DNA of 64,000 bases, taken from the sequence record OZ035771.1. One strand, 5' to 3'. The position numbers and the translations under genes were made by a program. The notes under the pieces are model-generated. The model had not been told where the DNA came from. It saw only the letters and a program-made list of their open reading frames with translations, and ran no database searches. This DNA comes from Phapecoctavirus DIJ07P2. Numbering within the stretch: position 1 is the first letter of the stretch; each line of letters starts with the position of its first letter. This document shows positions 12,691 through 62,865 of the stretch, one piece after another.

Positions 12691-13065
12691 ATGCAAGAGA
12701 GTAAAAATGTTCCGTTGAGTAGTGCAACATTGCTTCGCTTCTATAAAGCATGGATTGCCAACTATCCTGCAATGAATCGCACAACGAGTGGCTTATGTGG
12801 TTGTCTGGTAGATTATGTAAATGATTTTGTTGGTGAGACAACTAGAGAAGAAGATAGAAGATGGCGGGATAGTTTGTTGGACCGTTTGAAATATGAAATG
12901 AGGAAACAATTTACATGTGCAGGGCTGGACTATAATCTTCCGTTCAATGCAGATTGCATGGATTACCTTTCAGAGTGTATAAACTTGGCGTGTCATACCA
13001 ACACGTTACGTCTTCAGTGGGTGAAAGACAGAATTGAAGATGCAAATAATGCTTGCATTGAATAA
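12691..13065 (+). CDS. hypothetical protein, paralog family A
   Basis: motifs GLCGCL and LRLQWVKDRIEDA shared with 13796, 16543 and 17800 genes. Confidence 0.55.
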   Translation: MQESKNVPLSSATLLRFYKAWIANYPAMNRTTSGLCGCLVDYVNDFVGETTREEDRRWRDSLLDRLKYEMRKQFTCAGLDYNLPFNADCMDYLSECINLACHTNTLRLQWVKDRIEDANNACIE

Positions 13066-15433: not shown

Positions 15434-15462
15434 GAGAATACAGCAATGGTTTAGGAGTGGTT

Positions 15463-16134
15463 ATGAAAAAGTTTGTTGTTTACAGTCGTCTTTCTAAACA
15501 GAAAAAAGGTGAGGCACAATATGGTATGGAGAGCCAAGAGAACGATATCCGTTACTTCTTAGACTCTGTGCCTGATGCTGAAGTTATTGGTCAATTTTCT
15601 GAATACTATTCGGGTAAGGGCGATTGGAAGCAACGTAAGGAACTGGTTAAAGCGGTTGAAATGTGTAAAGCTACCGGAGCAACTTTATTGGTAGCTAAAG
15701 TTGACCGCTTGGGTCGTAACAACGCATCCGTAGCAACTCTTCTAGAAATGATTGATGTTAAGATAGCCATCATGCCAGACGCAGATAAAATGGTTATACA
15801 GCTTCTGTCTGTTCTGGCTGAACAAGAAGTTAGAGGTATTGCTGATCGTATTAAAAAGGGTCTTGCTGTAGCAAAAAGCAAAGGTGTTTTATTAGGCAGT
15901 GCTAATCCTAAAACTGCTGCTGCACGTAGAAAAGGAAAAATGGAATACAATTCTGTTAAAGCAGACGCTTTTGCAGAGACATTTCGTGAACGCTTGGAGA
16001 TCCTTAGAGATTTAAATACACCTTACAAAACTATTGCTGAAAAATTCAATAGTAAGAAAATAGCAACAGCACGTGGTGGTAAATGGGATGCTAAAACTGT
16101 TTCTCGTTTGTGTGCCAGACTTAACATTAAATAG
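15463..16134 (+). CDS. serine recombinase (resolvase/invertase family)
   Basis: YSRLSK nucleophile context, VDRLGRN motif, VLAEQEVRGIADRIKKG helix; track ORF 15457 trimmed to ATG 15463 after AGGAG. Confidence 0.65.
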   Translation: MKKFVVYSRLSKQKKGEAQYGMESQENDIRYFLDSVPDAEVIGQFSEYYSGKGDWKQRKELVKAVEMCKATGATLLVAKVDRLGRNNASVATLLEMIDVKIAIMPDADKMVIQLLSVLAEQEVRGIADRIKKGLAVAKSKGVLLGSANPKTAAARRKGKMEYNSVKADAFAETFRERLEILRDLNTPYKTIAEKFNSKKIATARGGKWDAKTVSRLCARLNIK

Positions 16135-16142
16135 GAGAGGAT

Positions 16143-16565
16143 ATGAAACAAGAAAATGAATCTGTAGATCACTTAATCATGCTGTCAGCCCTTTTTGCCG
16201 GATGGGACGTATTTTTTGAAAATTTATTCAATTCTGCTACAGATGGTTCCGATTTTATGCGGCAGTTTAAACGACGAACTGTTGAGGACTATGCTTTCTA
16301 TTCAGGTCGGATTGAAAAAGGTTACGAAGATACAAATACAACACTCACCATTAAAGTTTTAGATGTGATGTTTAGTGTTATAGATGCTATCGACGAAAGT
16401 CTTCCGATCCTAGACAATTGTAATACGAAAGCCTATGTTTACAAAATAGCTCGTGCTTATGTGTCTGCAAACAGTTGTCTTCTTTCCACCCAGATTGCCG
16501 TGAACAATCTTGCCAACTTGTTTGACGAAGGAGAAACTTTTTATGACAATCGATTTGAAGTGTAA
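16143..16565 (+). CDS. hypothetical protein (140 aa)
   Basis: track ORF. Confidence 0.5.
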   Translation: MKQENESVDHLIMLSALFAGWDVFFENLFNSATDGSDFMRQFKRRTVEDYAFYSGRIEKGYEDTNTTLTIKVLDVMFSVIDAIDESLPILDNCNTKAYVYKIARAYVSANSCLLSTQIAVNNLANLFDEGETFYDNRFEV

Positions 16566-16908
16566 GAGGATTCTTTTAGATTTCTATAATAATTGGTTAG
16601 AACACCTCCGTCTCTTTCCAAGAGAAAGTGGTTACGCTGATGTTGGCTTATGCCGAGGTCTGCGTATGTATATAAGTGATGAATTTCGGGCCGAGCATTC
16701 TTTAGCATATTCTGTTTATGGTATGCAATTAGCCAGTTTTGAAAACGCTGGCTTAGATACAACTTTCCCATTTAACACAGCAAAATCTTTTGAGCAAGAG
16801 TGTAAGGAAAAACGTTGCATGTTTAATGAAAAACGTGTACAGTGGGTTAAGGATCGAGTTAAACAACTGGAACAAGAGTTGGATTTCTTTTATGACGAGG
16901 CAGAATAA
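16543..16908 (+). CDS. hypothetical protein, paralog family A
   Basis: GLCRGL and EKRVQWVKDRVKQLEQ motifs; track ORF 16510 trimmed to ATG 16543 (GAAGGAG RBS). Confidence 0.5.
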   Translation: MTIDLKCKRILLDFYNNWLEHLRLFPRESGYADVGLCRGLRMYISDEFRAEHSLAYSVYGMQLASFENAGLDTTFPFNTAKSFEQECKEKRCMFNEKRVQWVKDRVKQLEQELDFFYDEAE

Positions 16909-17799: not shown

Positions 17800-18208
17800 T
17801 TGCACCCCGTTCTGCGGGGTGTTATTGTATACGTAAAGGAGGCGCTAATGTATTACACTGAAGACTACATATTGTATAACTTTTTTAAAGGCTGGTTGAA
17901 ATGGGCTGAACAAGCTCCTGTCGGAGATTGTGTTTTTCCTTGGGATTCTCGTCAAGGTTTGTGTCGTTGTTTGGAAGATTGGCTTATAACCACAAACTAC
18001 AACTCAGAAACTAAGAAATCTACATCACAGAGACTAAAAAATGTTATTTGAAGAAGATGGTTTAGATCCGATTTATCCTTTCGGTGAGGAAAGTTTCCAC
18101 AATGGTCTTTTCCTTGGCACTCAACATTATGATAAAGATCGTGTAGATTGGGTAAAAGAAAAGGTAGCACAGTATGAATGGGGGTTAAGAATTATCACCG
18201 CTGGTTAG
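17800..18208 (+). pseudogene. paralog family A member split by a frameshift in an A6 run (or sequencing indel)
   Basis: GLCRCL motif in ORF 17800..18051, LDPIYPFGEE and DRVDWVKEKV motifs in the next frame (18041..18208); junction at CTAAAAAATG 18034-18043. Confidence 0.45.
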
Positions 18209-18378
18209 AAAGCTATCTTAAGAAATGCGAACTTGGTGTTCCAGGTTATACTTACGACACGGACGAGATTCTTGATGAAATGGAAGTTTGGTTTAAAGAG
18301 CCTCGTGAACTATTGGCAAATATTCTAATGGCTTGGGATGGTACGGCACAAAGCATCGAAGGAGGTAGAAATGAGTAA
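18178..18378 (+). CDS. hypothetical protein (66 aa; weak)
   Basis: track ORF overlapping the end of the frameshifted gene. Confidence 0.3.
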   Translation: MGVKNYHRWLESYLKKCELGVPGYTYDTDEILDEMEVWFKEPRELLANILMAWDGTAQSIEGGRNE

Positions 18379-22965: not shown

Positions 22966-23766
22966 TTATTTGTTTAAATGGTCTTCAACCATTTTGATAA
23001 AGCCTTCATCACTGAAGACTGTTCCTGCTTTCTCTCGGTAGACAAGCACTCCACGTTCTTCGTAGAGAGTTTGTTCTACAAAATTCAAACCTGGGTTAAC
23101 TACAACCATCTTAACCCCAATATTCAGGGCAGGGAAGAGTTCCCAGTTGAAGTTGATTACTTGGTTAGAGCAGCCTACAACGATAACCATATCTTGTGAT
23201 GTTAGTTGATCCAGTTTGTGATACATGTCTGTGTAGAGCGGTGCATTCTCACCAAAAAACACCACATTAGGCTTCACATATTTGTAATCGTCTACATCAA
23301 TAGCTGCGTAACCCACATCTTTGATAATTTTGTTATCAACAACAACTTCTGGCAAGAAACCATGAACGTGCAATATTTCTTCTCTATCGATTCCAGCGCG
23401 TTCTAATAGATCGTCAACGTTAGTAGTGATGTTAATAATCCTTTCTGCACCGTATTTTTCGAACCATTCTCCAATCTGAAGATGTGCTGGATTCGGGTCA
23501 ACTTTCTCTAATTCCACGCGACGTTTATTGTAGAAGTCGTGAGTTTTACGGTAGAGGTTATATCCTTCCACATCTAAGCCACCCATAGCATCAGGAATAC
23601 CCTGTTCTTGCTGATAACCGGCACGGAAGTTGAAAATGTCACAAACCTCAGAAAGATCATAAGAAGACCATAACGCCTCCCCTGAAGAAGTATCTGTTCT
23701 AAAAGCTGGGATACCGCTATCCACAGATAGTCCTGCGCCAGTTATGAATATGACTCTACGCGGCAT
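22966..23766 (-). CDS. Sir2-family protein (no zinc ribbon)
   Basis: GAGLSVDSGIPAFR, TTNVDDL, HG, VVFFGE motifs; no CxxC...CxxC module. Confidence 0.7.
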   Translation of the reverse strand: MPRRVIFITGAGLSVDSGIPAFRTDTSSGEALWSSYDLSEVCDIFNFRAGYQQEQGIPDAMGGLDVEGYNLYRKTHDFYNKRRVELEKVDPNPAHLQIGEWFEKYGAERIINITTNVDDLLERAGIDREEILHVHGFLPEVVVDNKIIKDVGYAAIDVDDYKYVKPNVVFFGENAPLYTDMYHKLDQLTSQDMVIVVGCSNQVINFNWELFPALNIGVKMVVVNPGLNFVEQTLYEERGVLVYREKAGTVFSDEGFIKMVEDHLNK

Positions 23767-24496
23767 AAATCTCCTCCTTATATTTTTCGCAAATGCTTTT
23801 ATTTGCAGGTTTATATTTTTCTTTCATCACCTTCAATCTTAGCTTCTCCAGAGCTATAGCACATCTCTCTGGATCGTTGAAACCATATTTGCAATACGTG
23901 GTCTTGTCAAACACAAACTTGAAAAAGAATGTTCTCTCTCTTGTTGCCACAAACACACAACTTAATCCTGAAGTGTTATCTATACGCTTCTTTTCTTTTT
24001 TGATATAAGATCCTTTCAAAATTTCTTGTTTTGCTAAAGCTCTAGCTACAATAGCTTCCTCTTTAGTTTTGAAACCTGAAACAGAGAAAGTTTCTTGGTT
24101 GTAGTTTATAACCCAAAGAAAAACACCATCCTTTTCATAAATACCTTCTAACCCATCCACATGTCTATTATTATTATTTAATAAATAGTTACTATCTAAT
24201 AAATTACTTTCCGCATTATTAAGTTTATTGCCGTCGTCATGGTCTATAACATCTGGACAGTAATTATGGTACATTTTAAAACAAACTCTGTGCTCCAAGT
24301 ATACAATACCATCTATTTTGACATGAGAGTAACCAACTTTATCAATAGTCCCTGCAATCTTCCCTGCGTATCTGCTATTCCACCTTTTGTTCTCTTTTGT
24401 TGTAGAAGGTTTAGGTTTCCAAACAAGACGACCATTCTCCACACTAAACCTTGATAACAAGTAATCTCTATCTGGTAAGGGTTTTCGTTCTATCAT
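23756..24496 (-). CDS. HNH homing endonuclease with AP2-like DNA-binding domain
   Basis: YLEHRVCFKMYHNYCPDVIDHDDGNKLNNAESNL HNH motif; GFKTKEEAIVARA AP2-like segment. Confidence 0.75.
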   Translation of the reverse strand: MIERKPLPDRDYLLSRFSVENGRLVWKPKPSTTKENKRWNSRYAGKIAGTIDKVGYSHVKIDGIVYLEHRVCFKMYHNYCPDVIDHDDGNKLNNAESNLLDSNYLLNNNNRHVDGLEGIYEKDGVFLWVINYNQETFSVSGFKTKEEAIVARALAKQEILKGSYIKKEKKRIDNTSGLSCVFVATRERTFFFKFVFDKTTYCKYGFNDPERCAIALEKLRLKVMKEKYKPANKSICEKYKEEIYAA

Positions 24497-24981
24497 TCAC
24501 CCTCGTCCTCCTCAAATGGATCATAAGAATCATATTCGTAAGTATCATCTTCTGAAAATTCTACTTCAAAGTAAATATCAAACTCTGCAAACAAACGTAG
24601 AATGTTGGACATGCTGTAATAGTTATCATAAGCTTCCTCTGCTTCATAGTAGAGGCGTAGCAAACGTTCAGCTTCTTCATCTTCTACCCATTTATGATCG
24701 ACATAGACAGAAGCAGCGTAGGTATTGTAGGCTTGTTCCCGAATATCGACAAGATTTCGGCTCAACAGTTCAGGGAAGTCCTTATAATTTACATTCAGTC
24801 TTCCGCATAACCACAAAGCAATATCATGCCAATCTGCATCCATACCACTAAAGCAACTTGCTTCTTCTCCAAAAGAAGCTTCTCCTAAATCACCACTAAT
24901 ACGAACAACATTAGATGAATTATAGCCACACGTTTCACAATCAGAGTAACTATTATGCACATTGATATTTACTTGAAACAT
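24493..24981 (-). CDS. highly acidic hypothetical protein (162 aa)
   Basis: Asp/Glu-rich throughout, C-terminus DDTYEYDSYDPFEEDEGE. Confidence 0.5.
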   Translation of the reverse strand: MFQVNINVHNSYSDCETCGYNSSNVVRISGDLGEASFGEEASCFSGMDADWHDIALWLCGRLNVNYKDFPELLSRNLVDIREQAYNTYAASVYVDHKWVEDEEAERLLRLYYEAEEAYDNYYSMSNILRLFAEFDIYFEVEFSEDDTYEYDSYDPFEEDEGE

Positions 24982-25039
24982 ATTCCCTCCTATAAAAGAA
25001 AAGCCCCCTGAAACAGGAGGCTTTGTTCAGATGTTGGCA

Positions 25040-25690
25040 CTATACCAGACTTTGTAGGTATTTGTCAAGGGCTTCTTGATCACCTTGGCAAACATAGCAA
25101 CGAAAGTCTTTAACAGATGGTACTTTATTCTCATCCCAGTCCCACATTATATTACCTTTGTAACGTGAACTAGGGAAGTCGAAAAATGCTGTATGGGTGA
25201 TGTGGTGTGGACCGCCCCAAACCTCTGTAAAGGTGAACTGCGGATACGCTACCTTCACCGCCTCCATAAACCAAGCTTTACGAATCAAAGCATTGTTGAT
25301 AAAATGCGCGTGACGTTCCATTTCTTCCCAGTTCTTCCACACACTTTTCTCGTCAAGGGAGAATACAAGATCCTCTTCAATATACAAGCCATCTTCGCAT
25401 TCATCAAAATCTGCCTCAAGACCTCCTACAGGTTCGTCGAGTCTAACACCATCAAAAGCAGAATATACCCACCAACCATCTTCCAGTAAGGCTTTGATAG
25501 GGACGAAGCCTTTATCAGCATATTGATCGAATTGTTTGACACGGTGGCTTGTGCAGTCTTCAAACTCACATTCTAAACGATATGCACCTTTTCGACGAGC
25601 CTCAAGACCGTGTGTACTGAAAATAACAACACTTCCTTCACCATCATTACGATCTACTTGATAAGCAACCACTGGTTTTGAATTTGACAT
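25040..25690 (-). CDS. hypothetical protein (216 aa) abutting MTase-like gene
   Basis: track ORF; start overlaps stop of 25690..26373. Confidence 0.5.
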   Translation of the reverse strand: MSNSKPVVAYQVDRNDGEGSVVIFSTHGLEARRKGAYRLECEFEDCTSHRVKQFDQYADKGFVPIKALLEDGWWVYSAFDGVRLDEPVGGLEADFDECEDGLYIEEDLVFSLDEKSVWKNWEEMERHAHFINNALIRKAWFMEAVKVAYPQFTFTEVWGGPHHITHTAFFDFPSSRYKGNIMWDWDENKVPSVKDFRCYVCQGDQEALDKYLQSLV

Positions 25691-26373
25691 TATTTCTCCT
25701 TATCTAGAAGATTGTTAGACAAAAACACTGCACGAGCAAAACCACGTGCGGTTAGTGATCTAAGTTGTTTTGTTTTTGCACTAGCTCCACCTAAGCTTTT
25801 CCAACCCCAGAAGCAGCCTATATGATCTACTGGTTTCTTCACTGGTTGAACAAAACCATTGCCGTGCCAAATACAAGTTTTCTTTGTATACCCATCACGG
25901 GTAGGCATTTTAGGATGAAAGCTTCCTTCCTCTTCAAACAAATACCCACCATACTCATAAGGATCAAAGTAAAAATCTGGTTTACGCCATAAGGTTGAAA
26001 GTTTACCTACTGGGTTCTCAATCATCCAAGGAACATTATATTTGTTACCCAAAGCTTCCACTACACGAATATTAGCTAAAGCTTCATCTAATTCCTCTGT
26101 GCTACGTTCGTGTTTGCTACCACTACCTGCTAACATAGTGCAAGGTGGAAATCCAAAAATAATATCGGGTTTAGGTATTCCATGATCTTCAGGGTTGAAT
26201 GTAGAATCTATCCAAGCATTCACATAGGTTATGTTTGGGTGCTCCATCCTAACCTCGTATTTACCGTGATCCCCTTCATCAGCGTTTACACAAAAACACT
26301 TGTGACCTGCTTCGGCATAACGTAACACCATGATCCCAGATCCGTCAAACATAGACAAAACTGTTTTACTCAT
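25690..26373 (-). CDS. compact C5-cytosine methyltransferase-like protein
   Basis: motif I-like LSMFDGSG, motif IV-like FGFPPC, motif VI-like ENPVG; track ORF trimmed to ATG 26373. Confidence 0.45.
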   Translation of the reverse strand: MSKTVLSMFDGSGIMVLRYAEAGHKCFCVNADEGDHGKYEVRMEHPNITYVNAWIDSTFNPEDHGIPKPDIIFGFPPCTMLAGSGSKHERSTEELDEALANIRVVEALGNKYNVPWMIENPVGKLSTLWRKPDFYFDPYEYGGYLFEEEGSFHPKMPTRDGYTKKTCIWHGNGFVQPVKKPVDHIGCFWGWKSLGGASAKTKQLRSLTARGFARAVFLSNNLLDKEK

Positions 26374-26764
26374 TACCCCTCCATTCAAGACAAGCCATAA
26401 CTTTACGCCAATCACTTTCTGTTAGGAAGATCTGTTCTGAACTGATCCACAAATCTAAATCTTCTACATCTGGAAGGCGGTAGCGTAACTCCAAGAGATC
26501 ATGTTCTTCAGGAGAAATGTATCCCAAATGTTCTGCCATATCGTGGAACCAAGCCCAACCGTGCATATTTTTAACTACATGCTCTCGTTGCGTCATGACT
26601 TTACGTTTCAGTCCAAACCAAGAAGTGATTACCACTTTACTCTCTCGGAGACGTTTGTCAATAGCCACTGTTTCTTTTTCGATACTCAACAACTTCACTC
26701 TTGCTTTGTTGAGATCCGCATGTGTTACTTTGAAGTAACTTTGTGACTGATCACACCAACCCAT
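26366..26764 (-). CDS. hypothetical protein (132 aa)
   Basis: track ORF. Confidence 0.45.
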   Translation of the reverse strand: MGWCDQSQSYFKVTHADLNKARVKLLSIEKETVAIDKRLRESKVVITSWFGLKRKVMTQREHVVKNMHGWAWFHDMAEHLGYISPEEHDLLELRYRLPDVEDLDLWISSEQIFLTESDWRKVMACLEWRGNE

Positions 26765-26765
26765 A

Positions 26766-27437
26766 TCAATAACCTCCTTCGTAAGGTTTCACCTTAGCCC
26801 TATCATAATATAACATCTCTGCCTCCTTCCGTTTACGAATAGCTTCTTCTTTACTGTTACCATAGTATAAACTAATATGCTCTCCATTGACTCGGATGTA
26901 TGCAATCCATTTGCCCCTATCTTTTCTGTATTTTACCCCACAAATACCGGATAGATTATCTTTCCTTAGTTTTTGATCATAAGATTGCATTGCGAGTGAA
27001 GCCCACTCACAGGTTTCTTTGCTATAAACATCAGCAGAATTAATTCTGTTTAAGGTTGTGTTTTGTGGTCTACTACCCATATCCTCAACGAAATTCAAAA
27101 AACCTAAGTCCCCCTTCTCTAACCATCTACAGCATACAGAAACTCCACTACCTCCATACTTAGGATAATTCGGTGAGTTCTCATTGGTGCACCTGTCTAT
27201 CATGGCATTGTAGGAATTATATGTATATCTATCCTCAATGAACTTGTAATGGTAACGCTCACAACCACAAGATTTAGTTTTACCAGATTTTAATCTTTCG
27301 GCTGTAGTAACAAACTTCTCACCGCAATGACAAATACAATTCCATTTTGTAGATCGTCCAGTCTCCTTAATTGCTACATCAAGAACTGTTATACCATTGA
27401 ATACCATTCCAGACAGGTTTTCTAATTTCCTCCCCAT
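26766..27437 (-). CDS. homing-endonuclease-like protein with AP2 domains
   Basis: Cys cluster WNCICHCG..KSCGC, VSVCCRW segment, GVKYRKDRGKWIAYIRVNGEHISLYYGNSKEEA AP2 module; start trimmed to ATG 27437. Confidence 0.55.
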   Translation of the reverse strand: MGRKLENLSGMVFNGITVLDVAIKETGRSTKWNCICHCGEKFVTTAERLKSGKTKSCGCERYHYKFIEDRYTYNSYNAMIDRCTNENSPNYPKYGGSGVSVCCRWLEKGDLGFLNFVEDMGSRPQNTTLNRINSADVYSKETCEWASLAMQSYDQKLRKDNLSGICGVKYRKDRGKWIAYIRVNGEHISLYYGNSKEEAIRKRKEAEMLYYDRAKVKPYEGGY

Positions 27438-27438
27438 A

Positions 27439-28374
27439 CTATTCCTCAAAAGGTTTAAGTAAGTGTTTATTAGCGTGGAATCTTTTGATGTAATCATCTT
27501 CTCCCATACTTTCATAAAGCTTCATCACGACATGGAAGGATTCATAGGCATATTCACGAAACCAACCACTAGTGATAGATGTGCAAACTTTAGATAAAGC
27601 CATCATAAAACTTTGCTTAGGTGTTGGACCTCCGATCTCTTCACCGAAAGGAATTTGTGAACGTTCCAAAGCCAAAACACACGCTTCTTCATAAACACCT
27701 AACAGGCGCACATGTTTTGGTTGAGCAAAAAACTTTTCTTTGCTGGTCATAACTTCACTTCCATCTTTCATATAAGATTTATATGCTGGAGCATCCATTA
27801 CCGCGATTGCTTCATGGATAGAATCATGATCATAAACATACGGAACCTCATCACCTTTAAAGAAGTCTTTACTTTTTACGTTTAAGTTCGGATGAGAGTA
27901 AGTGTATGTTTCTTTCTCACGCAACTCATAAATACTCTTAAGATTTTCTGGGATCTTTGCGCCCAGTGACCGCATGAAATGAATATCTTTCATAGTTTTA
28001 AAGAAGTGAGGACTATCCTTTTTAAAACGATGACTCATTTTAAGAAGGTAGAGCACATCTAAAGGAGCAACAACATGTCCAGCGTAAGTTCGACGAACAT
28101 CATCAGAATCTTCACAATAACTAATCAAAGCTTCTGTGCTATCTCCTTGAGAAGCAATATCGTATTCCAAATGTGCACCAGCTATCATTTTGACGTGGCC
28201 TTTGTTCCCTTTACGTTCTACAAGTTCAACAAACTCGTCTTGAGAGAACATTTTTGATAATTCTTCCCACTCTTGTTCTGTACAGAGATAATCTAAATCT
28301 ACACAAGGGCGATACAAGTCTTTTCCCATGTCCATAGCATGAATTTGTAATGCACGGCTACCAATTAACACCAT
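27439..28374 (-). CDS. hypothetical protein with possible nucleotidyltransferase-like motif
   Basis: N-terminal LIGSRAL...VDLDY resembles hG[GS]...DxD of Pol-beta-type NTases but spacing is atypical. Confidence 0.4.
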   Translation of the reverse strand: MVLIGSRALQIHAMDMGKDLYRPCVDLDYLCTEQEWEELSKMFSQDEFVELVERKGNKGHVKMIAGAHLEYDIASQGDSTEALISYCEDSDDVRRTYAGHVVAPLDVLYLLKMSHRFKKDSPHFFKTMKDIHFMRSLGAKIPENLKSIYELREKETYTYSHPNLNVKSKDFFKGDEVPYVYDHDSIHEAIAVMDAPAYKSYMKDGSEVMTSKEKFFAQPKHVRLLGVYEEACVLALERSQIPFGEEIGGPTPKQSFMMALSKVCTSITSGWFREYAYESFHVVMKLYESMGEDDYIKRFHANKHLLKPFEE

Positions 28375-32962: not shown

Positions 32963-33210
32963 AATCCCTCCTTAAAAATACTCCCTCCGAGAAGGGAGTA
33001 TAAGTATATCACGTAGTTGTTATGTTGTCTTCTTGGATACCAGAATCCACTTCTGCAAACATATCTTCTGCACTGTAATTATTTCCAGTCCAGCGTGATA
33101 GAAGGATAGCACCAATCTCTTTTGCATGAGATTCAGACTCCGCATAAACGTTAGTCCCAGTGTCACCTTTTTCTTTTCATGTGCATAAATGCAGTAATAA
33201 TTGTAAGCCA

Positions 33211-33447
33211 TTAGTCTTCCCAGTCATTGTTCTCGGTAGAGTGAACCAAAGCTCGCACGATGCCGCCATAGTCTACTGCTTGGTTTGCAGCATGTTCGGC
33301 ATAAACTTCAATAGCTTTTTTGAAGAAAAGAGCAGTAGCTGCTTCAATATTATCCATTTCACCCTCTACATCAGTAGAAAGTGAAAGGTTGAGGCTTTCA
33401 TCTACTTCATCAAAATCAATAGCCACTGTCATAATTAGTTTACCCAT
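33211..33447 (-). CDS. hypothetical acidic protein (78 aa)
   Basis: track ORF. Confidence 0.4.
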   Translation of the reverse strand: MGKLIMTVAIDFDEVDESLNLSLSTDVEGEMDNIEAATALFFKKAIEVYAEHAANQAVDYGGIVRALVHSTENNDWED

Positions 33448-45408: not shown

Positions 45409-45507
45409 ATTTTCTCCTTCATTTTGAATGGGAGGACTCACCTCCTCCCAGTATTGTGCTATATTATACTAAAACTAATACTAAAGTCAATAACTATTTA
45501 AAACAGA

Positions 45508-60658: not shown

Positions 60659-60919
60659 GTGAGGAGATGCCGATCACTCCCCATTTGGGGGTTCGAAGGA
60701 TATATGCAAAATAGCTTTTATTTTAGGTGCCGTGCTTGTAATAGGCATTTGACAAACCACTCCAGACGTGATAAAAATGGAGTCATCAAGGAATCAGACC
60801 TCTGTTCTATTTGCACAGGTTTGGCTTTTGATGATAGTCCCGAAAGGGTTTATCAGCATCAATATATAACAGACGTTCTCGTATCAAACTTGGTAGAGGA
60901 CGAACAACTAACAGATTAG
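60659..60919 (+). CDS. hypothetical Cys-rich protein (86 aa)
   Basis: track ORF; CRACNRH...CSICTG. Confidence 0.45.
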   Translation: MRRCRSLPIWGFEGYMQNSFYFRCRACNRHLTNHSRRDKNGVIKESDLCSICTGLAFDDSPERVYQHQYITDVLVSNLVEDEQLTD

Positions 60920-62788: not shown

Positions 62789-62865
62789 GCGTTATTAGTG
62801 TTAGCGGTTCAGCATCCCGTCCTTCCAAGTCGGTGGCATCGGTTCGAATCCGATATAACGCTCCA
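62789..62865 (+). tRNA. tRNA-Gly (TCC)
   Basis: acceptor GCGTTAT/ATAACGC, anticodon loop CTTCCAA, T-arm ATCGG-TTCGAAT-CCGAT, U73. Confidence 0.7.

What the first reader, a model, noticed from the sequence alone, without database searches (positions are those of the whole stretch)
18030..18052. Family-A paralog interrupted by a frameshift in an A6 homopolymer
ORF 17800-18051 contains the GLCRCL motif and ends at TGA; the C-terminal family motifs (LDPIYPFGEE, DRVDWVKEKV) continue in a different frame from 18041 to 18208. Removing one A from CTAAAAAATG (18034-18043) would fuse them into a protein of about 135 aa, matching the 124-132 aa of the intact paralogs. This is a sequencing indel, a recent pseudogenisation, or slippage-dependent expression.
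Basis: seen in the sequence. Interest (0 to 1): 0.5.

Follow-up and report, generated by a model that had tools for sequence, protein, structure and literature searches.

The report
One-base frameshift in a phage gene
A small phage gene of unknown function is split in two by one extra A found only in this isolate; it is most likely an ordinary recent gene-killing mutation, not a programmed frameshift.

Summary
The window is a Phapecoctavirus (phAPEC8-like) genome, very probably phage DIJ07_P2. ORF1 (17848-18051, 67 aa) and ORF2 (18041-18208, 55 aa, +1 frame) are the two halves of one phrog_2510 gene. They match profile positions 5-64 and 65-111. The split lies in the A6 run at 18036-18041.

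All 64 related phage records and one metagenome contig have one base fewer there (A5 where read directly), and where annotated the gene is intact at 112 aa. Removing one A and one G gives a protein identical to the ESCO13 orthologue.

The split products occur on only two public contigs. One is an independent Logan re-assembly of run ERR12949680, identical to the window over 20,168 bases. If the window is DIJ07_P2, the data are Illumina, so an assembly error is unlikely.

There is no slippage signal. The shift is not conserved, A6 is below the run length E. coli RNA polymerase needs, and no RNA structure or SD-like element flanks it.

The best reading is a recent isolate-specific inactivating insertion in one of three paralogues. 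The family's function remains unknown. The same genome carries other unique homopolymer indels, including a second broken small gene at 33168-33172. Interest is low.

The parts
17802..17822 (+). Terminator-like hairpin after the upstream gene.
   Evidence: 9-pair stem, 6 GC pairs. Conserved in relatives.
17837..17842 (+). Shine-Dalgarno AGGAGG, 5 nt before the true start ATG 17848.
   Evidence: Read from the sequence. ESCO13 annotates a ribosome-binding site at the same place.
17848..18051 (+). ORF1: N-terminal half of the phrog_2510 gene (67 aa). Residues 1-64 are native, followed by NVI and a stop.
   Evidence: profile positions 5-64, E 2.3e-9.
18036..18041 (+). A6 run. One A more than in every relative. 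This is the frameshift site, at codons K64/M65.
18041..18208 (+). ORF2: C-terminal half of the same gene in the +1 frame (55 aa). It starts at the native Met65 and ends with a 7-aa extension caused by the G5 run.
   Evidence: profile positions 65-111, E 1.6e-11.
18180..18184 (+). G5 run. A second one-base insertion relative to 58 of 60 listed relatives (G4). Phage AV125 also has G5.
18178..18378 (+). Next gene (phrog_19887, 66 aa). Because of G5 it starts at ATG 18178 (MGVK...) instead of ATG 18174 (MNGVK...).
16543..16908 (+). Intact paralogue of the same family (121 aa).
12691..13065 (+). Intact paralogue of the same family (124 aa).

Best explanation
A single A was inserted into an A5 run (A5 to A6, 18036-18041) in the lineage or laboratory stock of this one phage isolate, most probably Phapecoctavirus DIJ07_P2. 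Replication slippage is the likely mechanism. The insertion shifts the reading frame at codon 64/65 of a 112-aa early gene of the phrog_2510 family.

Translation from ATG 17848 now ends after 67 residues. The truncated product lacks the conserved C-terminal half of a single compact helical domain. The gene is therefore most likely inactivated, a recent pseudogene. Two intact paralogues remain at 12691-13065 and 16543-16908.

The event is recent, because no other change has accumulated. Any full-length protein could arise only from low-level, unprogrammed slippage. A +1 re-pairing of tRNA-Lys on A-AAA-A, or an A6-to-A5 transcript error, would each recreate the exact wild-type sequence.

Shown: the split, its uniqueness to this isolate, its reproducibility in a second assembly, and the position of the break inside a helix. 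Inferred: that the base is real in the DNA, that the truncated protein is inactive, and that the loss is tolerated because the gene is accessory.
For: The two halves abut on one family profile.

All 64 related phage records are one base shorter across 17985-18100. One search lists 60 of them. The other four are covered. Where aligned they show A5. A metagenome contig also has A5.

Orthologues are annotated as one 112-aa gene. Deleting one A and one G gives 100% identity to the ESCO13 protein.

By exact-sequence look-up, the 67-aa and 55-aa products lie on only two contigs. The two commonest intact 112-aa sequences lie on 83 and 177 contigs.

One of the two contigs is the Logan re-assembly of run ERR12949680. 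Its 20,168 bases are an exact substring of the window, including the A6 and G5 runs. The other contig is 144,811 bp. That is the length listed for DIJ07_P2 in the Guelin collection, which was sequenced with Illumina MiniSeq and assembled with SPAdes.

The seven window-unique one-base indels avoid large genes. Four of seven lie outside protein-coding sequence (three intergenic, one in a tRNA), against about 17% of homopolymer runs (P about 0.02). That is the pattern expected of real mutations filtered by selection.

The AlphaFold model (pLDDT 96) places residues 64/65 in the middle of helix 3 of a one-domain five-helix fold.
Against: No reads were inspected, so the base count rests on two assemblies of what is probably the same read set.

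The identification as DIJ07_P2, and hence as Illumina data, rests on a length match and on the style of the run accession. It is not a direct record.

This genome has 6-7 unique homopolymer indels in about 45 kb, somewhat more than the 2-5 seen in each comparison genome. That could hint at a technical component.

Loss of function of the truncated protein is inferred, not tested.
Confidence: 0.7

Rival explanations
1. Sequencing or assembly artefact: the phage really has A5 and an intact gene, and the extra A is a homopolymer miscall carried into the consensus.
For: The difference is a single base in a homopolymer, seen in one isolate only. The same genome has a second +1 homopolymer difference 143 bases away and 4-5 more elsewhere, slightly more than the comparison genomes. 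Both contigs that carry it probably derive from one read set.
Against: A different assembler working from the raw reads gives the identical sequence over 20 kb. The collection this genome appears to belong to was sequenced on Illumina MiniSeq, and by general knowledge consensus errors at 5-6 base runs are rare on that platform. The unique indels are not spread at random over the homopolymers but avoid large genes.
Confidence: 0.2
2. The gene survives as a split gene. Ribosomes terminating at UGA 18049-18051 reinitiate at AUG 18041, 8 nt upstream, which is the native Met65. The two halves are made separately and might associate.
For: ORF2 begins exactly at the native Met65 and overlaps ORF1 by 11 nt. 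By general knowledge, short overlaps of this kind allow termination-reinitiation coupling in phage operons. ORF2 shows no further damage.
Against: There is no SD before ATG 18041. The break lies in the middle of helix 3 of a single compact domain, not at a domain boundary. No relative has this arrangement. The lack of decay is equally explained by a recent event.
Confidence: 0.05
3. Programmed or regulatory slippage: the A6 run is used for +1 ribosomal frameshifting, transcriptional slippage, or phase-variable switching of the gene.
For: tRNA-Lys could re-pair perfectly one base forward on A-AAA-A, and the product would be the exact wild-type protein (read from the sequence). The ORF1 end AUU-UGA loosely resembles the prfB shift site CUU-UGA. 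The nearby G run does vary among isolates.
Against: The shift is not conserved. All 64 relatives and one metagenome contig carry the in-frame allele (A5 where read directly). A6 is below the run length at which E. coli RNA polymerase slips, which is at least 7 T and more for A (PMC6260861). Selection against slippery runs appears at about 9 nt (PMC1088944). The upstream 52 nt are unstructured and the downstream fold is no better than shuffles (z 0.6 to 1.8). There is no SD-like element upstream. A -1 shift on A_AAA_AAU leads only to ...KKCYLKKMV*.
Confidence: 0.03

Closest known systems
Orthologous intact gene in Phapecoctavirus relatives: ESCO13_00056 (AOQ27196.1), phAPEC8_0054 (AFU62629.1), REC_00113
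   Same: Same position between the same neighbours, same SD and start codon. The protein is 100% identical to ESCO13's once one A and one G are removed.
   Different: Those genes have A5 and G4 and encode one 112-aa protein. Here A6 splits the gene into 67 aa and 55 aa, and G5 adds 7 residues at the end.
phrog_2510 (phage protein family of unknown function)
   Same: The fused protein, both separate halves and the two intact paralogues all match this profile. The family has 1144 representative clusters at E<=0.001, mostly of 100-125 aa.
prfB-type programmed +1 ribosomal frameshift
   Same: A +1 shift is what would be needed, and ORF1 ends in a NUU-UGA context.
   Different: There is no upstream SD-like stimulator, re-pairing of tRNA-Ile on UUU is poor, and the shift is absent from every orthologue.
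Transcriptional-slippage genes (Thermus dnaX A9, IS elements with A8-A9; PMC1088944)
   Same: A homopolymeric A run lies at the junction of two overlapping frames.
   Different: The run is only 6 long and is not conserved. The ancestral state is an in-frame A5.

Membership tests
phrog_2510 protein family | Significant match to the family profile over the ~105-residue domain | tested here: met
   Fused protein E 4.1e-27 at profile positions 5-110. ORF1 matches positions 5-64 and ORF2 positions 65-111.
phrog_2510 protein family | Conserved residues of the family (F12, G37-L-C39, P77-F78, R98, W101-V102) | tested here: met
   These residues are invariant in the 70-sequence alignment A3 and present in the repaired protein. 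In the window they are divided between ORF1 and ORF2.
Programmed ribosomal frameshift site | Shifted gene arrangement conserved among orthologues | tested here: not met
   All 64 phage records and one metagenome contig carry the unshifted allele.
Programmed ribosomal frameshift site | Stimulatory element (upstream SD-like sequence or downstream stable structure) | tested here: not met
   The upstream 52 nt fold at 0 kcal/mol. Downstream z-scores are 0.57 and 1.75, no better than shuffles. No SD-like motif is seen in the sequence.
Programmed transcriptional slippage site | A or T run long enough for the host RNA polymerase to slip (about 7-9 or more) | tested here: not met
   The run is 6 A. 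Thresholds come from PMC6260861 and PMC1088944. Whether the phage uses only host RNA polymerase was not tested.
Phase-variable (contingency) homopolymer locus | Tract length varies among isolates of the lineage | tested here: not met
   The A run differs in length from the window by the same one base in all 64 relatives. Only the neighbouring G run varies: one record (AV125) matches the window's length and one (ECML-183-2) is a base shorter than the rest, against 58 of 60 at the common length.
Sequencing or assembly artefact | Not reproduced by an independent assembly of the reads | tested here: not met
   The Logan contig of ERR12949680 is identical to the window at 8041-28208.
Sequencing or assembly artefact | Reads disagree with the consensus at the site | not testable with these tools
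   No access to read data.
Recent pseudogene | Single disabling lesion in otherwise orthologue-identical sequence, with intact orthologues in close relatives | tested here: met
   Eight records differ from the window only by the one-base gap over 116 nt. The repaired protein is identical to ESCO13's.
Recent pseudogene | Loss of the protein's function | not testable with these tools
   Inferred only, from the truncation in mid-helix of a one-domain fold.

The most novel reading that the evidence does not exclude
Short homopolymer runs in the early accessory-gene region of these phages may act as mutational on/off switches. Examples here are the A run, the G run at 18180 that also differs in two other isolates, and the A run in the gene at 33020-33211. 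Such switches would let a phage population shed or regain individual paralogues of host-interaction genes. Low-level +1 slippage on A-AAA-A would provide leaky expression of the off allele.
Probability: 0.04. Interest if true: 0.5.

Novelty: already known. Interest (0 to 1): 0.1.

Why it matters
It matters mainly for annotation. The two small ORFs should be annotated as one disrupted gene, not as two hypothetical proteins, and the next gene's start should be placed at 18178. It also shows that this paralogue of a widespread, uncharacterised phage family can apparently be lost without stopping the phage from being propagated. That is weak evidence the gene is accessory or redundant. Nothing here opens a new mechanistic question.

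Tried and rejected
IMG/VR was searched twice, once with a DNA pattern and once with the protein, and holds no close relative. The GTDB genome scan found none either.

The word-indexed protein search returned only the gene's own cluster. The exhaustive profile search was needed to see the wider family.

A -1 frameshift on A_AAA_AAU was considered and rejected because the -1 frame stops after 9 codons. I considered whether the A6 and G5 insertions compensate each other. They do not, because both are +1 insertions.

A test of whether this assembly is unusually rich in homopolymer indels gave 6-7 unique ones, against 2-5 in each of the other genomes. That is suggestive but not decisive.

Full report
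What is in the sequence. The region was read directly and its ORFs listed. A gene starts at ATG 17848, five bases after the SD AGGAGG (17837-17842). A terminator-like hairpin lies just upstream at 17802-17822. The reading frame runs to TGA 18049-18051 and gives 67 residues: MYYTEDY...GLCRCL...STSQRLKNVI. A second frame, +1 relative to the first, is open from 18038. It has ATG at 18041 and runs to TAG 18208, giving 55 residues: MLFEEDGLDPIYPFGEE...DRVDWVKEKV.... The two frames overlap only between 18038 and 18051, so any shift must occur there. The TTG at 17800 used as a start sits at the foot of the hairpin and is not the start used in any annotated orthologue. The repaired protein is thus 119 aa here, not about 135 aa.

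It is one gene, beyond chance. Against PHROGs, ORF1 alone matches phrog_2510 at profile positions 5-64 (E 2.3e-9). ORF2 alone matches the same profile at positions 65-111 (E 1.6e-11). The repaired protein matches at E 4e-27. The two intact paralogues in the window (12691-13065, 124 aa; 16543-16908, 121 aa) match at E 2e-25 and 2e-26.

What the relatives show. The window is a Phapecoctavirus (phAPEC8-like myovirus, Stephanstirmvirinae), 98-99% identical to many E. coli phages around this gene. In ESCO13, phAPEC8, REC and 3A1_SA_NWU the orthologue is annotated as one 339-nt gene of 112 aa. Alignment shows A5 where the window has A6. Across 17985-18100 all 60 listed records are exactly one base shorter than the window, and eight of them differ by that gap alone. 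The four unlisted records are three NWU phages and a RefSeq duplicate. They are covered. A 150-kb metagenome contig also has A5. Removing one A and one G from the window gives a protein 100% identical to ESCO13's. The lesion is therefore unique to this genome and recent.

A second indel close by. The window has G5 at 18180-18184, where 58 of 60 listed relatives have G4. Phage AV125 also has G5, and ECML-183-2 is one base shorter still. G5 adds seven residues (LRIITAG) to the end of the family gene. It also moves the start of the next gene (phrog_19887) from ATG 18174 (MNGVK...) to ATG 18178 (MGVK...), leaving that protein otherwise unchanged.

Real base or artefact. An exact-sequence look-up found the 67-aa and 55-aa products on only two public contigs, and the 66-aa variant of the next gene on the same NCBI contig. 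One contig is an NCBI record of 144,811 bp. The other is the Logan re-assembly of ENA run ERR12949680 (143,302 bp). The two commonest intact 112-aa sequences occur on 83 and 177 contigs. The 20,168 bases fetched from the Logan contig are an exact substring of the window (8041-28208), including both the A6 and G5 runs. A second assembler working from the raw reads therefore reaches the same consensus. The supplementary table of Gaborieau et al. (bioRxiv 10.1101/2023.11.22.567924) lists one Phapecoctavirus of exactly 144,811 bp, DIJ07_P2. The methods state Nextera libraries, Illumina MiniSeq paired-end reads and SPAdes assembly. That the window is DIJ07_P2 is an inference from this length match. 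If it holds, a consensus error at a six-base run is unlikely, by general knowledge of Illumina error profiles.

A census of one-base indels. I compared the window with six relatives: REC, ESCO13, DIJ07_P1, 536_P1, B15 and MRostami-2023b. I then counted one-base indels in which every covering relative disagrees with the window. There are seven:
- A6 at 18036-18041.
- G5 at 18180-18184.
- A5 at 32974-32978.
- T5 at 33168-33172.
- A4 at 45500-45503.
- G5 at 60687-60691.
- An extra T at 62801-62802.

Three are intergenic. One lies in the D-loop of tRNA-Gly. One sits at a gene overlap. Two break small genes: this one and the 67-aa phrog_15892 gene on the minus strand at 33020-33211. None hits a gene larger than 130 aa. 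Only about 17% of homopolymer runs of four or more are non-coding by a crude gene call, so four of seven in non-coding sequence has P of about 0.02. This looks like variation filtered by selection, not random miscalls. The other genomes each carry 2-5 singleton homopolymer indels of their own. Such differences are therefore common in this group, and the window's count is only slightly higher.

No sign of programmed recoding. The shifted arrangement is not conserved. The 52 nt upstream of the run do not fold at all, and the downstream sequence folds no better than shuffled controls (z 0.6 to 1.8). There is no SD-like element before the run. A -1 slip on A_AAA_AAU reaches a stop after nine codons. 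The +1 shift that is needed could in principle occur by tRNA-Lys re-pairing on A-AAA-A, or by loss of one A during transcription. Either would recreate the wild-type sequence. However, E. coli RNA polymerase needs at least 7 T, and more A, to slip measurably (PMC6260861). Selection against slippery runs in bacteria appears at about nine bases (PMC1088944). Any rescue would be an unprogrammed trickle. I did not test whether the phage brings its own RNA polymerase.

Verdict. The finding is real and correctly read. It is an isolate-specific one-base insertion that splits one of three paralogues of an uncharacterised phage gene. Most probably it is a genuine recent inactivating mutation in phage DIJ07_P2 (about 0.7). 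A homopolymer miscall is the main alternative (about 0.2). Functional split-gene or slippage readings are remote. It is ordinary biology and mainly of annotation value.

Noticed in passing
window 33168-33172 (gene on the minus strand, 33020-33211): A second isolate-specific homopolymer frameshift. The minus-strand run is A5 here against A6 in all six relatives. It shifts the 67-aa phrog_15892 gene (orthologue of REC_00148 / ESCO13_00090) out of frame after codon 15.
   Followed up: partly
window 18180-18184: G5 against G4 in 58 of 60 listed relatives. AV125 also has G5 and ECML-183-2 is one base shorter. The run adds 7 aa to the family gene and moves the start of the next gene from ATG 18174 to ATG 18178 with almost no change to its protein. 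This G run appears to be a recurrent slippage site that is tolerated.
   Followed up: yes
window 62801-62802, inside tRNA-Gly(tcc) 62789-62865: A window-unique extra T near the 5' end of a phage tRNA gene, about 13 nt in (D-arm region). ARAGORN still calls the tRNA.
   Followed up: no
window 32974-32978, 45500-45503, 60687-60691: Three more window-unique one-base homopolymer insertions, all in intergenic sequence. The first lies between a terminator hairpin and the SD of a minus-strand gene.
   Followed up: partly
window 12691-13065, 16543-16908, 17848-18208: The phrog_2510 family is large (1144 representative clusters), has no Pfam model and no solved structure, and gives a very confident five-helix model. 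It could be described as a new domain family. Tandem two-domain members exist.
   Followed up: partly
window about 23660-24560 and 26790-27450; also 24563-26792: Stretches with no match, or only about 85% identity, to the closest relatives. They lie next to the Sir2-like gene region and form a variable island between otherwise 97-98% identical blocks.
   Followed up: no
window 15457-16134: A serine recombinase (Resolvase, PF00239) is encoded among the small early genes of this virulent-type phage. It is variously annotated in relatives as resolvase, DNA invertase or recombinase.
   Followed up: no
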